Origin: an uncultured Thermoleophilia bacterium
GTDB taxonomy: Bacteria; Actinomycetota; Thermoleophilia; UBA2241
Assembly: GCA_963715985.1 (NCBI GenBank)
Contig: CAVQSP010000011.1
Location: 1-64,000 of the forward strand
Reading direction: 5' to 3'
DNA: 64,000 nucleotides
How positions within the stretch are numbered: position 1 is the stretch's first letter; each line of letters starts with the position of its first letter. Below are positions 37,969 to 57,714 of this stretch, piece after piece. Under the pieces are notes generated by a model, which was not told the DNA's origin, did no database searches, and saw nothing but the letters and a program-made list of their open reading frames with translations. A program made the position numbers and the translations under genes.

Positions 37969-39360
37969 ATGGCATCGCGTATCCCGACGAGACTCGGCGA
38001 CGGTTCGCTGGTCGAGATGACCCGGGCGGAGATCGAGGCGGACCTCAACGCCGGCTCGGAGGTCGCCGTCAAACGGGCCAAGGTCGAGCCTCTTCCCCAG
38101 GACGACATCGACCACCTGCTCGACATCTTCACCTCCCCGGCCAAGTTCAGCGCCGTGGACTACGGCGACGAGGTGGTCCTCAGCTTCGACGGCTCCGGCA
38201 ACGCGGACATCGGCGCGCCGGTGCTCGAGCAGATCGTCTACCAGAACCACCACGGCGCCGACATGATCGAGCTCTGGCACCACGACTACTCGTACAAGGC
38301 CGTGCGCACCGTGCTCTCCTTCCAGACGCAGCTGCTCAAGGACGCGCAGCAGCAGACCGTGATCCCTCTCAACTACGGGGCGATGCCGGACCTGGGCCGC
38401 TACTCCATGCCGGACGGCCCGGCGAGGAACTGGTCGGAGCTGCTGCCGCTGGGCAAGGTCGACGAGGCCCGCGAGGCCCAGCTGGAGGCCGTGGAGCACC
38501 TCGAGAAGGACATGTGGTACGTGATCGAGGCCATGGTGGCGGCCGGCGTGGACGGCATCGACTTCGACACCGCCGGCGCCGCCGGGGACGCCGACCTGCT
38601 GGCCACGCTGCGCACGGCGCGCAAGCTGCGCGACACGTGGCCGGACATCGGCGTCGAGATCGGCCAGGCCTCCGAGCTCGTGCTCGGCATGCACGGGCAG
38701 CTCGAGTACGAGGGTACCCGGCTGGCCGGCCAGTGGCCGCTCGGCCAGCTCCGCGCCTGCACGGCCGCCGGCGCCACCATCTTCGGGCCGGCGGTGAACG
38801 TGAACACCACCAAGTCGCTGGCCTGGAACACCGCCCGCGCCTGTGCCCTGGTGAAGCCCGTCACCGCCGAGGCCAGCATCCCCGTGCACATGAACGCGGG
38901 CATGGGCGTCGGCGGCGTGCCCATGACCCCGTATCCGCCGGTGGACGCCACGTCGCGCGCCTCACGCGCGCTCGTCGACATCTGCAAGATCGACGGCTTG
39001 TAGGTCGGGGTCGGGGATCCCCTCGGGATGGCCTCGACACACGCGCTCGCCTCGGGCATGGGCGGGATGCGGACCGCCGGAGATCTGGTGGCCCGCATGC
39101 AGATGACCCGAGGCCTACGCCTTCCGCAGGCCAAGCAGTACGTGGCGGACAAGCTCGGCTGCTCCGTCGCCGACCTCGGCGACACCGTGGCGATGCACGA
39201 CATCCGCCGCGACCTCGGTCTCGGCCGCATCCAGGTGCAGGACCTCACCTACGCCGACCATCCGGGGGCCATGGAGGCCAAGTTCCACGTCGCCGAGGTG
39301 CTGGACATCCCCATCAACTCGGTGGAGCGCTTCAAGGCGCACGCCGGACTCGTGCTCATG
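37969..39360 (+). CDS. mtbB: Dimethylamine:corrinoid methyltransferase MtbB paralog 1; in-frame TAG at 39001..39003 (predicted Pyl345); reads in frame into the downstream MttB homolog
   Basis: TRLGDG, DYSYK, YGAMPDLG, FDTAGAAGDAD, E.VLGMHG, GMGVGGVPM, then [31 protein letters not shown] continuing MtbB homology after the amber. Confidence 0.92.
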
Positions 39361-40830
39361 AGCCCCTCACAGCTCGACCTGACGAGCCGCCAGCCGCTCC
39401 TGCCGCTGGGCTCGGACTTCCGCGTCACCTTCTACGACGCCGCCAAGCTGGAGCGTTACCGCGAGGCGGTCCTCGCGGTGCTGGAGCGCACCGGGGTGAA
39501 GTTCGGTTCACCCAAGGCGCTCGCGGTCCTCGAGGAGCACGGCGCCAACGTCGACCGCGCGTCCGGCGTCGTGCGCTTCCCGCCCGACCTCGTCGCGCGC
39601 GCTCTCGCGAGCGCCCCGCGCACCTTCTGGCTGGGCTCGCGCGACGGCACCCTCGACCTGGACCTCGCGAGCGGCGACACCTTCAACACGACGAACGGCT
39701 GCGGCACCGAGGTCGTGGACTGGCACACGGGCGAGCGACGCGCGCCGACCAAAGACGACCTCGCGGCCATCACGCGGATGATCGACTATCTGGGCTCCGT
39801 CCAGTTCTGGTGGCCCAACGTGGCCGCGGCGGACTGCGGCGACACCCACACCCTGCACGAGCTGGACGCCGCCTGGAACAACACGGCCAAGCACCTGCAG
39901 GGCATGGTGCAGGGCGAGCGCGAGGCCAGGTACGCGGTGGAGATGGCGATGGTGATCGCCGGCGGCGCGGAGCAGCTTCGCCGCCGTCCCCCGATGAGCA
40001 ACCTCATCGGCACGGTGCAGCCGCTCATCAACGACAAGGACGGCATCGAGGCGGCGCTGGTGTTCGCGGAGGCCGGCGTGCCCGTGTGTTTCGTCACGAT
40101 GCCCACGTATGGCACGACGGCGCCGGCAACGAAGGCCGGCGCCTACGTGATGGGCTTCGCCGAGCTCATCAGCGCCGCGGTGTGCGTACAGCTGGCGCAC
40201 CCCGGCGCCCCGGTGATCCTGTTCCCCCTGCCGGTGCACGCCGACCCGCGCACGGCGGCGCTCACGACGGCGCCGCTGAACCACCGCGGCCTCTTCCTGC
40301 CCGGCGAGCTGGTACACCACTTCGGCCTTCCGGCGATGACCGGGTACGCCGGCACCGACGACGACCTGCCGGGCACATGGCTGGCGGCCGCGGAGACGGC
40401 GCACACGGTGATGCTCGCCGGCATCGTGGGCTCGGAGCTGATGACCACCATCGGCCTCACCAACCGCTACCAGCTGTTCACGCCCGAGCACATGATGCTC
40501 GACGACGACCTCTACCGCCGCGCCGCCAACGCCTTCCGCGACCTCGAGCTCGACGAGGAGACGCTGGCTCTGGACGTCATCGACGCCGTCGGTCCGGGAG
40601 GTCACTTCCTCGGCCAGCCGCACACGCGCCGCCACATGAAGGAGACGGTGGAGCGCTCCATCGGCCAGGAGATCGGCCCGGACGGCACGCACCTGAGGAA
40701 CGCCGTGGAGGTCGCGCGCGAGCGCGGCCTCGACATCCTCGAGCACTACGTGCCGGAGCCGCTCGACGAAGCCAAAGCGGCGGAGCTGGCGCGCGTCATC
40801 GCCGCCGCCGACGCCGAGCTGCTCGGGTAG
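39358..40830 (+). CDS. MttB-superfamily methyltransferase without Pyl (in frame with mtbB1)
   Basis: LE.TGV, GTTAP.T.AG, HPGAP, LALDVI..VGPGGHFL..PHT; no internal TAG. Confidence 0.88.
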   Translation: MSPSQLDLTSRQPLLPLGSDFRVTFYDAAKLERYREAVLAVLERTGVKFGSPKALAVLEEHGANVDRASGVVRFPPDLVARALASAPRTFWLGSRDGTLDLDLASGDTFNTTNGCGTEVVDWHTGERRAPTKDDLAAITRMIDYLGSVQFWWPNVAAADCGDTHTLHELDAAWNNTAKHLQGMVQGEREARYAVEMAMVIAGGAEQLRRRPPMSNLIGTVQPLINDKDGIEAALVFAEAGVPVCFVTMPTYGTTAPATKAGAYVMGFAELISAAVCVQLAHPGAPVILFPLPVHADPRTAALTTAPLNHRGLFLPGELVHHFGLPAMTGYAGTDDDLPGTWLAAAETAHTVMLAGIVGSELMTTIGLTNRYQLFTPEHMMLDDDLYRRAANAFRDLELDEETLALDVIDAVGPGGHFLGQPHTRRHMKETVERSIGQEIGPDGTHLRNAVEVARERGLDILEHYVPEPLDEAKAAELARVIAAADAELLG

Positions 40831-56339: not shown

Positions 56340-57714
56340 CCTCGCGAAAGCGCTGGACGGAGTTGATCGGGATGTCGAGCAGCTCCGCTATGTGCACCTT
56401 TGCCTCCAGCCCGAGCGGCTCGCCCACGTAGGTGACCTCGCCGGCCTCGGTCATGGACCCGAGTCCGCGCTCCTTGCGCACCTCGAGCATGACGACCGGA
56501 TCGCTGAGGTCGTCCTCGGACACTCCGAGCCGCCCGGCTACATAGGCCTTGGCCTCGGTGAGTCGCATCCCCCGGGTCATCTGCATCCGCGCCACCAGGT
56601 CTCCGGCGGTGCGGACGCCTCCCATGCCCGAGGCGACGACGTGGCTCACGGCCTGGCCGTAGACGTCGCCGGCGCCTACCTACAAGCCGTCCAGCCGCAG
56701 CAGGTCCACGGCGGCGCGCGAGGCCCGCGACGTCGCGTCTCCCGGCGGCAGGATGTGCATGGGCACGCCCCCCACCCCCATGCCGCCGTTGAGGTGGACG
56801 GGGATGGTGGCCTGCTCGCAGCACGGCTTGCAGATCGCGATCGTGCGCGCCACGTTCCAGGCCACCGACTTGCCGGTGTTCACGTTGATCGCCGGCCCGT
56901 AGATGGTGGCGCCGGCCTTGGCCGCCAGCTTCATCTGCTCGAGGGGCCAGAGACCGGCCAGCCGCACGCCCTCGTACTCGAGCTCGCCGTGCATGCCGAG
57001 CACGAACTCGCTGGCCATGCCGATCTGGATGCCCAGATCGGGGTGCCGTGCGCGGATGCGCTCGATAGCCACGAGGGCCGCCAGGAAGTCGGCGTCGCCG
57101 GCGGCCCCCGACGTGTCCAGGTCGATGAAGTCGGCGCCCGCCTCGGCGAGGCCGTCCGCCACGTACACGATGTCGGCGGCGGCCTGCTCCACGGCCGCTT
57201 CCTGCGCCTCCCGCGCCTCGGCGTACCTGCCGAGCGGCAGCAACTGGGCCCAGTTGGGCAACGGCCCATCCGGCACCGTGTACAGACCCAGGTCCGGCAT
57301 GGCGCCGTACCCGCACGGCGTGGTGAGCAGGTACTGCGCCTGCCGCATGATCGTCTGCTCGTAGGGAACGACGGCCTTGGCAGGCTTGAACGAGTAGTCC
57401 TGATGGTAGAGCTCGACCGAGTCGGCGCAGAGGAACTGCTCGTAGTACTGCAGGTCGTGCACGCGCGTGCCGATGTCGTGGGCTCCGCTGCCGTCGTAGG
57501 TGAGGACGACCTCGTCGCCGATGTCCACGGCGCTGAAACGAGCCGCCGACGCGAAGATGTCCACCAGGTGCAGGATCTCATCGTCGGTGAGCGGCGGCAC
57601 TTTGGCGCGCTTCACCGCCGCCTCCACCCCGGCCCGCACCTCCTGCTCGATCTCCGCCCGGGTCATGCGCACCAGCGACCCGTCGCCCATGCGCGTCGGG
57701 ATGGATCGGTCCAC
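56311..57714 (-). CDS. mtbB: MtbB paralog 4; in-frame TAG at 56682..56680 (predicted Pyl345)
   Basis: [36 protein letters not shown]. Confidence 0.92.

What the first reader, a model, noticed from the sequence alone, without database searches (positions are those of the whole stretch)
37969..57714. Five hidden pyrrolysine genes (4x mtbB, 1x mttB) in a high-GC, probably actinobacterial genome
Seen: five ORFs end at TAG (39001, 42872, 44225, 52232, 56682) while family homology continues in the same frame (DG[L/F]*[V/A]GxGD... in all four mtbB; VAGL*ADGK...GHEKT in mttB). Read-through gives MtbB lengths of about 463-468 aa. Established: Methanosarcina MtbB and MttB carry catalytic pyrrolysine, encoded by UAG, in these sequence contexts; bacterial Pyl users are best known among Firmicutes and Deltaproteobacteria. 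Inference: this organism has an expanded genetic code and an unusually large bacterial MtbB family. The same TAG at the same column in four diverged paralogs is very unlikely to be sequencing error.
Basis: partly seen in the sequence, partly recalled or inferred. Interest (0 to 1): 0.92.

Follow-up and report, generated by a model that had tools for sequence, protein, structure and literature searches.

The report
Pyrrolysine-coding methylamine methyltransferase genes, Thermoleophilia
Four dimethylamine and one trimethylamine methyltransferase genes of an uncultured wetland or soil actinobacterium each carry an in-frame TAG that very probably encodes the 22nd amino acid pyrrolysine, a real case but one already reported for this group.

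Summary
Four mtbB genes and one mttB gene carry a single in-frame TAG at the family's pyrrolysine (Pyl) column. Pfam and NCBIfam homology continues across each TAG. Rfam's Pyl-codon models start exactly on all five TAGs. The mttB TAG aligns with the non-standard residue of the Methanosarcina barkeri MttB structure 7XCL.

The same genome encodes pylB, pylC, pylD, tRNA-Pyl(CUA), pylSn and pylSc. Its nearest PylSc relatives are almost all Thermoleophilia MAGs, so the actinobacterial guess is right.

Genome-wide there are 11 mtbB, 10 mttB and 2 mtmB loci with TAG in one column each. All 24 other species sampled in the genus have TAG-bearing mtbB.

TAG is still a common stop, about 19%, so decoding is ambiguous, not reassigned.

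- mttB carries a one-base insertion, probably an assembly error.
- mtbB1 has no stop and runs in frame into a non-Pyl MttB-family gene.

It is not new. A Thermoleophilia PylSc is listed in PMC9630628, and Actinobacteriota expressing Pyl-type mttB and mtbB are reported in PMC10805028. This scan found the same thing 20 times before, in at least 17 other genomes.

The parts
37969..39351 (+). mtbB1, a dimethylamine:corrinoid methyltransferase with the Pyl codon TAG at 39001-39003. It has no stop codon of its own and continues in frame into the next part.
   Evidence: TIGR02368 scores 418.6 bits against a cut-off of 369.1, over profile 1-464/466. The halves meet at profile 355/357. Rfam PYLIS_2 matches 39001-39100 at 65.3 bits. 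The missing stop is seen.
39355..40830 (+). Non-Pyl MttB-superfamily methyltransferase gene, in frame with mtbB1. Its ATG is at 39355 and it ends at TAG 40828-40830.
   Evidence: PF06253 E 3.8e-55, profile 32-497/500. TIGR02369 scores 279.4 bits, below the 525 cut-off, and there is no internal TAG. In 11 of 11 orthologous loci it is a separate gene after a TAA or TGA.
41057..41782 (-). TetR-family regulator, divergent from mtbB2.
   Evidence: PF00440 and PF13977.
41840..43246 (+). mtbB2, with the Pyl codon TAG at 42872-42874. Its TGA stop overlaps the mttB start (GTGA).
   Evidence: TIGR02368 scores 422.3 bits. The halves meet at profile 355/357. PYLIS_2 matches 42872-42971.
43243..44713 (+). 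mttB, a trimethylamine:corrinoid methyltransferase with the Pyl codon TAG at 44225-44227. In this assembly it is broken by a 1-base insertion near 43697.
   Evidence: TIGR02369 matches the pieces at 186 bits (profile 2-137) and 495 bits (profile 141-469). The TAG aligns with the X of 7xcl_A. PYLIS_3 matches 44225-44324 at 73.8 bits. The insertion is absent from 9 of 9 orthologues and from the only contigs covering it in runs X2 and X3.
46324..47797 (+). Another non-Pyl MttB-family gene, in two frames in this assembly.
   Evidence: PF06253 matches 46324-46920 (profile 10-205, 1 TGA) and 46928-47773 (profile 207-493).
51879..53270 (-). mtbB3, with the Pyl codon TAG at 52230-52232 and a second TAG at 51879-51881 as its stop.
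   Evidence: TIGR02368 scores 430.2 bits. The halves meet at profile 354/358. PYLIS_2 matches 52232-52133.
56311..57732 (-). mtbB4, with the Pyl codon TAG at 56680-56682.
   Evidence: TIGR02368 scores 407.6 bits. The halves meet at profile 354/357. PYLIS_2 matches 56682-56583 at 53 bits.
11516..12247 (-). The only corrinoid (B12-binding) protein gene in the window, about 26 kb from the mtbB genes.
   Evidence: PF02310 and PF02607. TIGR02370 scores 197.1 bits, below the 215.3 cut-off.
12251..14489 (-). Two MtaA/CmuA-family (URO-D fold) methylcobamide methyltransferase genes, candidates for passing the methyl group on from the corrinoid.
   Evidence: PF01208. TIGR01463 scores 122.2 and 194.2 bits, both below the 235.4 cut-off.

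Best explanation
The five genes are functional pyrrolysine (Pyl) genes of an uncultured Thermoleophilia bacterium (Actinomycetota). UAG at one fixed codon is read by Pyl-tRNA(CUA). The tRNA is charged by a split bacterial-type PylRS (PylSn + PylSc) with Pyl made by PylBCD. All of these are encoded on another contig of the same genome.

The full-length MtbB (about 461-473 aa) and MttB use Pyl to activate dimethylamine or trimethylamine and methylate a Co(I) corrinoid protein (inferred from the family). The methyl group is then passed on, probably to tetrahydrofolate, and either oxidised or fed to acetyl-CoA synthase. RamA-type activases repair oxidised corrinoid. This downstream part is inferred only from gene content.

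UAG stays ambiguous. It is still a common true stop, so read-through competes with termination, as in other Pyl bacteria.

The mttB frameshift is most likely an assembly error.
For: Shown in the window:
- One TAG sits at profile position 356/466 of the MtbB equivalog model in 4 of 4 genes.
- All four pass the curated cut-off when read through.
- Rfam PYLIS_2 (four times) and PYLIS_3 (once) match over model 1-100/100, starting on each TAG, above the gathering score.
- The mttB TAG aligns with the X of M. barkeri MttB 7xcl_A, and with K in 7xcm_A.

Decoding machinery in the genome:
- tRNA-Pyl(cta) at C13:555126-555198.
- PylSc 314.5 bits against 178, PylSn 123.5 against 51, PylC 316.8 against 248, PylD 199.2 against 150.

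Conservation:
- 11 of 11 mtbB, 10 mttB and 2 mtmB loci of the genome have TAG in one column each. The MtbB paralogues are 45-69% identical.
- 24 of 24 other species of the genus have mtbB, and every listed row has one TAG.
- The best 120 of 2199 database homologues are all 328-351 aa, so their gene calls stop at the TAG.
- PylSc is present in 32 of 35 sampled genomes of the family, in 5 of 35 of a second family, and in 0 of 130 of ten others.
- tRNA-Pyl lies beside PylSc in 16 of 20 relatives' loci.

Downstream genes: two RACo, CdhC, pterin-binding methyltransferases, and 29 matches to the corrinoid-protein model (about 20 genes by my grouping of split matches).

Frameshift: 9 of 9 orthologues lack the base. 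The sole contigs over 43697 in runs X2 and X3 also lack it.

From print: the amber codon is conserved in each methyltransferase class, and Pyl in MtbB was confirmed by mass spectrometry (PMC2933860, passages read).
Against: - No protein or RNA evidence for this organism. No RNA holder was available, so expression is untested.
- pylB scores 304.8 bits, below its 348.2 cut-off, and matches only profile 5-252/347. It is broken in this assembly, probably another frameshift, so the Pyl pathway is not demonstrably intact here.
- The genome is a bin: 88.8% complete, 7.3% contaminated, 22 contigs. The pyl genes are on contig C13 and the window is on C11.
- No corrinoid protein gene lies next to the window's four mtbB genes.
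- I could not obtain a Methanosarcina MtbB sequence to align directly, and no MtbB structure exists. The MtbB column assignment therefore rests on profile and Rfam model positions. That Pyl is residue 356 of M. barkeri MtbB1 is recalled, not taken from a call.
- The Rfam PYLIS models largely capture coding conservation. A PYLIS structure in mtbB is doubted in print (PMC2933860).
- TAG is about 19% of stops, and mtbB3 itself ends in TAG with no further in-frame stop for 466 codons. How the cell separates the two meanings is unexplained.
Confidence: 0.95

Rival explanations
1. The TAGs are true stops. The genes are split or decayed, and only N-terminal fragments of about 344 aa are made.
For: Public gene calls treat them so: the best 120 homologues are all 328-351 aa. 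TAG is a frequent stop in this genome. The assembly does contain broken genes: mttB, pylB, DUF1638 and a second MTTB.
Against: The 112-113 codons after each TAG stay in frame and match the family profile to its end. TAG is kept at one column in paralogues only 45-69% identical and across 24 of 24 species of the genus. Decay would scatter stops and frameshifts. The complete decoding machinery co-occurs.
Confidence: 0.02
2. This lineage has reassigned all TAG codons to pyrrolysine genome-wide, as recently described for some archaea (Kivenson et al. 2025, known to me only through its citation in PMC13695967).
For: It has a very large set of Pyl genes, 23 loci. mtbB3 'ends' at a TAG after which the frame stays open for 466 codons.
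Against: By a crude call, 409 of 2176 confident ORF ends (18.8%) are TAG, far too many for a sense-only codon. After the TAG ends of mtbB3 and of the MttB-like gene the translation is low-complexity Arg/Gly/Pro-rich and matches no family. The orthologous mtbB1 genes end in TAA or TGA. Release factor 1 was not searched for.
Confidence: 0.02
3. Binning artefact: the pyl gene cluster (contig C13) and the mtbB window (contig C11) come from different organisms.
For: The bin has 7.3% contamination and 22 contigs. Some contig ends carry duplicated genes: identical MTTB hits on C3 and C9.
Against: Both contigs are long (698 kb and 676 kb) with 70% GC. C13 itself carries a TAG-bearing mtbB and mttB. 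The two traits co-occur in independent bins: mtbB in 24 of 24 genomes sampled in the genus and PylSc in 18 of 21.
Confidence: 0.01

Closest known systems
MtbB1-3 and MttB of Methanosarcina barkeri (Pyl-dependent dimethylamine and trimethylamine:corrinoid methyltransferases; TIGR02368/PF09505, TIGR02369/PF06253; MttB structures 7XCL, 7XCM and 7XCN, PMC9842639 seen as a search listing and abstract only)
   Same: Full-length equivalog-level matches. A single in-frame UAG at the same profile column, and at the X of 7xcl_A for MttB. The Rfam Pyl-codon models match from the UAG.
   Different: The host is a bacterium of 70% GC, not a methanogen, so the methyl acceptor cannot be coenzyme M for methanogenesis. 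There are 11 mtbB loci instead of 3. PylRS is split into PylSn and PylSc. TAG is a common stop. There is no adjacent corrinoid protein gene in the window.
Bacterial Pyl users: Desulfitobacterium hafniense, the Olavius delta1 symbiont (PMC1976440) and marine and gut Deltaproteobacteria (PMC7593587 and 10.1101/2021.03.15.435355, both seen as search listings only)
   Same: Split pylSn/pylSc, pylBCD and pylT. UAG is frequent as a stop. Sec and Pyl occur together, as in delta1: tRNA-Sec and selA are present here. Multiple mtbB and mttB genes are clustered.
   Different: The phylum is Actinomycetota, class Thermoleophilia. The gene set is larger: 11 mtbB + 10 mttB + 2 mtmB, against 6 + 2 + 0 in delta1. 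Pyl-type mtmB is present, which delta1 lacked.
Actinobacteriota MAGs of Stordalen Mire expressing Pyl-encoding mttB and mtbB (PMC10805028, passages read), and the PylSc of 'Thermoleophilia_bacterium' MBE0528218.1 in PMC9630628 (supplementary file 3, rows read)
   Same: Same phylum, and for the second the same class. Same genes, and a wetland or peat habitat (the runs holding this stretch are labelled wetland and soil metagenomes).
   Different: Those papers list or mention the trait without describing the gene family. I could not tell whether those MAGs belong to this genus. The copy number, the family-wide distribution and the mtbB1 run-on were not in the passages I read.

Membership tests
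MtbB, dimethylamine:corrinoid methyltransferase (TIGR02368 / PF09505) | Full-length match above the curated equivalog cut-off | tested here: met
   418.6, 422.3, 430.2 and 407.6 bits against 369.1, with profile coverage of about 1-464/466 when TAG is read through.
MtbB, dimethylamine:corrinoid methyltransferase (TIGR02368 / PF09505) | Single in-frame UAG at the family's pyrrolysine column | tested here: met
   The halves end at profile 354-355 and restart at 357-358, so TAG is position 356/466. Rfam PYLIS_2 model position 1 falls on each TAG. This is indirect: no Methanosarcina sequence could be aligned, and that Pyl is residue 356 of MtbB1 is recalled.
MtbB, dimethylamine:corrinoid methyltransferase (TIGR02368 / PF09505) | Cognate corrinoid protein (MtbC) encoded beside it | tested here: not met
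   No B12-binding gene lies within 37-58 kb of the window. The only one is at 11516-12247. Elsewhere in the genome a canonical mtbB-mtbC pair exists at C14:693414-695466.
MtbB, dimethylamine:corrinoid methyltransferase (TIGR02368 / PF09505) | Pyl actually incorporated, and dimethylamine-dependent corrinoid methylation | not testable with these tools
   Needs proteomics and an enzyme assay.
MttB, Pyl-type trimethylamine methyltransferase (TIGR02369) | UAG aligned with Pyl of the solved M. barkeri enzyme | tested here: met
   The query 'vaglKadgk' (K stands for the TAG) aligns with 'vagsXsdak' of 7xcl_A, E 6.9e-91. PYLIS_3 scores 73.8 bits from the TAG.
MttB, Pyl-type trimethylamine methyltransferase (TIGR02369) | One intact reading frame above the equivalog cut-off | tested here: inconclusive
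   There are two pieces, 186 + 495 bits against a cut-off of 525, separated by a 1-base insertion. 9 of 9 orthologues lack it, and 7 of those 9 are intact with one TAG. The short-read contigs lack it too.
Pyrrolysine decoding system (pylT, pylS, pylBCD) | tRNA-Pyl with CUA anticodon | tested here: met
   ARAGORN finds tRNA-Pyl (cta) at C13:555126-555198. The same is found in 16 of 20 relatives' loci.
Pyrrolysine decoding system (pylT, pylS, pylBCD) | PylRS (bacterial split form PylSn + PylSc) | tested here: met
   TIGR02367 scores 314.5 against 178.15. TIGR03912 scores 123.5 against 51.15.
Pyrrolysine decoding system (pylT, pylS, pylBCD) | PylC and PylD | tested here: met
   TIGR03909 scores 316.8 against 248.3. 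TIGR03911 scores 199.2 against 150.05.
Pyrrolysine decoding system (pylT, pylS, pylBCD) | Intact PylB | tested here: inconclusive
   TIGR03910 scores 304.8 bits, below the 348.2 cut-off, and covers only profile 5-252/347. A 122-codon ORF in another frame overlaps its end, which suggests a frameshift. This was not followed up.

The most novel reading that the evidence does not exclude
The 11 deeply diverged Pyl-MtbB paralogues (45-69% identity) may not be redundant dimethylamine enzymes. Each lies beside, or within about 5 kb of, a different MttB-superfamily gene (Pyl-type in about half, non-Pyl in the rest). In the window one even runs in frame into its partner.

They may have diversified to demethylate different secondary or tertiary amines, namely the products of the neighbouring quaternary- or tertiary-amine demethylases. 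That would extend pyrrolysine chemistry beyond mono-, di- and trimethylamine, and would make this Thermoleophilia family a major bacterial sink for methylated amines in wetlands.
Probability: 0.2. Interest if true: 0.7.

Novelty: new member of a known kind. Interest (0 to 1): 0.3.

Why it matters
The finding shows that standard gene calling truncates about two dozen genes in this genome. The 120 best public homologues are all cut at the TAG, so methylamine use by soil and wetland Thermoleophilia is systematically under-annotated.

These bacteria probably compete with methylotrophic methanogens for methylamines, which bears on wetland methane budgets. That point is already raised in PMC10805028.

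The split PylSn/PylSc-tRNA pair from a 70% GC actinobacterium, and 11 diverged MtbB paralogues, are also useful material for genetic-code-expansion work and for asking what limits Pyl enzymes to three substrates.

As a discovery it adds little. The trait is in print and has been met repeatedly in this scan.

Tried and rejected
- RNA evidence: no RNA holder was listed among the 24 runs, so nothing can be said on expression.
- PDB search with MtbB2: 0 matches at E <= 0.01, so there is no structural check of the MtbB Pyl column.
- Homologue search with MtbB2: it returned only TAG-truncated environmental proteins in the 120 rows shown. No named Methanosarcina MtbB appeared, so no direct alignment to a characterised MtbB was possible.
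- Fusion lead: the long open frames beside mtbB in G009 and G013 suggested a conserved MtbB-MttB fusion. The fetched loci proved to be other paralogues with upstream open frames or a TAG end, so the lead was rejected.
- First junction comparison: my first megablast recovered only 5 of the 11 loci given. It was redone with blastn for all 11.
- Reads at the mtbB1/MttB-like junction: depth is low at 39286-39516, and no listed contig bridges 39340-39380 in the window's form. One X3 contig leaves the window at 39350 and continues with the stop + GGAG + ATG form seen in relatives. Whether the run-on is real in this strain stays open.
- Reads at the TAG codons: none of the 40 'other letters' rows shown falls on a TAG, but 244 rows were not shown, so this is no proof.
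- The stop-codon count is a crude GC3-filtered ORF-end count, not a gene prediction. No comparison with non-Pyl relatives was made.
- Not done: a PylS phylogeny to find the donor of the cassette, a search for RF1, and a fold of tRNA-Pyl.

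
Full report
OBSERVATION

- + strand: 37969..39003, 41840..42874 and 43703..44227.
- - strand: 52230..53354 and 56680..57732.

Reading TAG through keeps each frame open and homologous.
- Pfam PF09505 (Dimeth_Pyl) matches the four upstream pieces to profile position 352-353 (E 1.7e-113 to 2.9e-119). It matches the four downstream pieces from position 355-356 to 461-462 of 463.
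- With NCBIfam TIGR02368 the N-halves end at 354-355 and the C-halves start at 357-358 of 466, so the TAG is profile position 356.
- Read through, the four proteins score 407.6-430.2 bits against the curated equivalog cut-off of 369.1.
- For mttB the two pieces around the TAG match TIGR02369 positions 141-312 and 315-469.
- In a search of solved structures the TAG position aligns with the non-standard residue X in 'vagsXsdak' of M. barkeri MttB 7xcl_A, and with K in 7xcm_A.
- Rfam's Pyl-codon families match over their full length starting on each TAG, above the gathering scores. PYLIS_2 (mtbB) matches at 39001, 42872, 52232(-) and 56682(-). PYLIS_3 (mttB) matches at 44225.

(a) mttB is in two frames.
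- Codons 1-152 (43243-43698) end at a TGA, and the rest starts one base later.
- Alignment with 9 orthologous loci of the genus shows a single extra base near 43697 that 9 of 9 lack. Seven of those 9 are intact with one TAG.
- The only public short-read contigs covering that place, in runs X2 and X3, also lack the base. One of them differs from the window by one other letter in 121.
- The assembly has several other genes in two frames: DUF1638 at 10554-11517, an MTTB gene at 46324-47797, a molybdopterin oxidoreductase at 59531-62429, and pylB. An assembly error is therefore the likeliest reading.

(b) mtbB1 has no stop codon.
- After '...ERFKAHAGL' the frame continues 'VLMSPSQLD...' into a complete non-Pyl MttB-family gene and ends at TAG 40828-40830.
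- In 11 of 11 orthologous loci from other species, mtbB ends in TAA or TGA within a few codons, and the MttB-like gene has its own ATG, usually after GGAG.
- The reads do not settle whether the run-on is real here.

(c) mtbB3 ends at a second TAG (51879-51881). No further in-frame stop follows for 466 codons.

THE DECODING MACHINERY

The window is C11:1-64000 of a 4.35-Mb, 22-contig bin of 70% GC, 88.8% complete and 7.3% contaminated.
- ARAGORN finds tRNA-Pyl(cta) at C13:555126-555198.
- Around it lie pylB (304.8 bits, below the 348.2 cut-off, covering only profile 5-252), pylC (316.8 against 248.3), pylD (199.2 against 150.05) and pylSn (123.5 against 51.15). A corrinoid protein gene and pylSc (314.5 against 178.15) follow on the other strand.
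- This is the bacterial split-PylRS arrangement.

WHO IT IS

The 33 nearest PylSc loci in one genome per species are 68-79% identical. By their record titles they are 27 Thermoleophilia MAGs, 5 labelled Actinomycetes or Actinomycetota, and 1 labelled Deltaproteobacteria. tRNA-Pyl lies beside PylSc in 16 of 20 of these loci that I scanned, out of the 33.

In a sample of 200 other genomes of the class, PylSc is present in 32 of 35 genomes of the window's family (7 genera), in 5 of 35 of a second family, and in 0 of 130 of ten other families.

mtbB is present in 24 of 24 other species sampled in the genus, and in 1 of 16 genomes sampled from other families. Every row listed has exactly one TAG, and one row also has a TGA. 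A further 96 rows were not listed.

The stretch is held, in part, by contigs of 23 runs labelled wetland or soil metagenome.

SIZE OF THE GENE SET

- PF09505 gives 15 matches, which amount to 11 loci: 8 intact and 3 split by frameshifts. All 11 have TAG in one alignment column, DG[L/F]-TAG-[V/A/M]G.
- Ten MttB genes have TAG in the 'AGx-TAG-xDxK...HEK' column. One fragment has a TAG elsewhere.
- Two MtmB genes share a TAG column, where four non-Pyl MtmB homologues have V or I.
- There are also dozens of non-Pyl MttB-family genes: 89 PF06253 matches in all.
- The eight full MtbB paralogues are 45-69% identical. The TAG has therefore been kept through old duplications.

HOW IT PROBABLY WORKS

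- Shown: the genes, the TAG column and the machinery.
- Established for the family: Pyl activates the methylamine for methyl transfer to a Co(I) corrinoid protein, and Pyl in MtbB was confirmed by mass spectrometry (PMC2933860, passages read).
- Inferred from gene content: the genome has 29 matches to the corrinoid-protein model, about 20 genes by my grouping of split matches. It also has a canonical mtmB-C, mtmB-C, mtbB-C, mttC-B cluster at C14:682-698 kb.
- Also inferred: two RamA-type RACo activases, pterin-binding methyltransferases and an acetyl-CoA synthase beta subunit lie at C11:144.8-152 kb. A haem-copper oxidase is also present. Methyl groups could therefore go to tetrahydrofolate and then to CO2 or acetyl-CoA.
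- The window's own mtbB genes have no adjacent corrinoid gene. The nearest is at 11516-12247, next to two MtaA/CmuA-family genes.

STATUS OF UAG

By a crude count, 409 of 2176 confident ORF ends are TAG (18.8%), against TGA 78% and TAA 3.2%. Genes in the window end in TAG. UAG is therefore ambiguous, as in D. hafniense (PMC1976440), and not reassigned genome-wide.

NOVELTY

- PMC9630628 (passages and supplementary rows read) counts PylRS in 'two Actinobacteria', one of them 'Thermoleophilia_bacterium'. PMC11764691 repeats this.
- PMC10805028 (passages read) states that some Actinobacteriota MAGs of a thawing-permafrost mire express Pyl-encoding mttB and mtbB.
- Searches for 'pyrrolysine' with 'Thermoleophilia', 'Actinomycetota', 'Actinobacteriota' and 'RBG-16-64-13' found nothing that describes the gene family in detail. 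bioRxiv supplements could not be seen.
- This scan has already reported the same feature 20 times, in at least 17 other genomes, with the same verdict.

I therefore file it as a new member of a known kind. The modest extra points are the copy number, the family-wide distribution, the co-occurrence with selenocysteine (tRNA-Sec and selA) and the mtbB1 run-on.

Noticed in passing
window 39340-39380 (mtbB1 / MttB-like junction): mtbB1 lacks a stop codon and is in frame with the downstream non-Pyl MttB-family gene, giving a conceptual 953-aa fusion that ends in TAG. In 11 of 11 orthologous loci in other species there is a TAA or TGA and a separate ATG. It is either strain-specific or an assembly artefact.
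   Followed up: partly
window 51879-51881 (-): mtbB3 uses TAG as its terminator. If it is read through, the frame stays open for 466 more codons, antisense to the NAD synthase gene, with no nearby back-up stop.
   Followed up: no
window 8727-8816 (+): A c-di-GMP-II-GAG riboswitch aptamer (RF03169, 58.9 bits against a gathering score of 40) lies just before, and overlaps the start of, an ORF with a SnoaL-like domain at 8800-9834.
   Followed up: no
window 10554-11517, 46324-47797 and 59531-62429; G000:C13:551811-553005: Several genes lie in two overlapping frames: DUF1638, an MttB-family gene, a molybdopterin oxidoreductase and pylB. This suggests many single-base indel errors in this assembly.
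   Followed up: partly
G000:C13:139538-139635 and C13:103605-104978: tRNA-Sec (tca) and selA (526.9 bits against a 267.9 cut-off) are present. The organism probably uses both selenocysteine and pyrrolysine.
   Followed up: partly
G000:C11:185068-186420, C11:311481-312830, C3:48518-49861 and C14:103360-104718: Four full-length MtmB-family genes have no TAG. They have V or I at the column where the two Pyl-type mtmB genes have TAG. These are non-Pyl MtmB homologues of unknown substrate, three of them next to corrinoid protein genes.
   Followed up: no
G000:C14:682146-698113: A canonical cluster, mtmB-mtmC, mtmB-mtmC, mtbB-mtbC and mttC-mttB. All four corrinoid proteins score at or near the 'pyl_corrinoid' cut-off.
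   Followed up: no
G000:C11:144815-151919: An acetyl-CoA synthase (CdhC domain, in two frames), a RACo-type corrinoid activase and a pterin-binding methyltransferase lie close together, which looks like a Wood-Ljungdahl-type module. A haem-copper oxidase subunit I is on C13:213624-214964.
   Followed up: no
G004, G047 and G048 (same genus): Three genomes of the genus, 93-98% complete, show no PylSc. G047 and G048 are only 1.7-1.8 Mb in 1-2 contigs. G004 still has three mtbB matches with TAG. This may be loss of the trait, or a gap in the bin.
   Followed up: no
L011 (JBLMXT010000180.1): A MAG titled 'Deltaproteobacteria bacterium' carries a PylSc 77% identical to the window genome's, within the range of the Thermoleophilia hits. 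The contig is probably mislabelled or misbinned.
   Followed up: no
G000:C3:7432-8833 and C9:168510-169911: These two places give identical PF06253 match patterns (same profile ranges and open-frame lengths), which suggests a duplicated stretch at contig ends of the bin.
   Followed up: no
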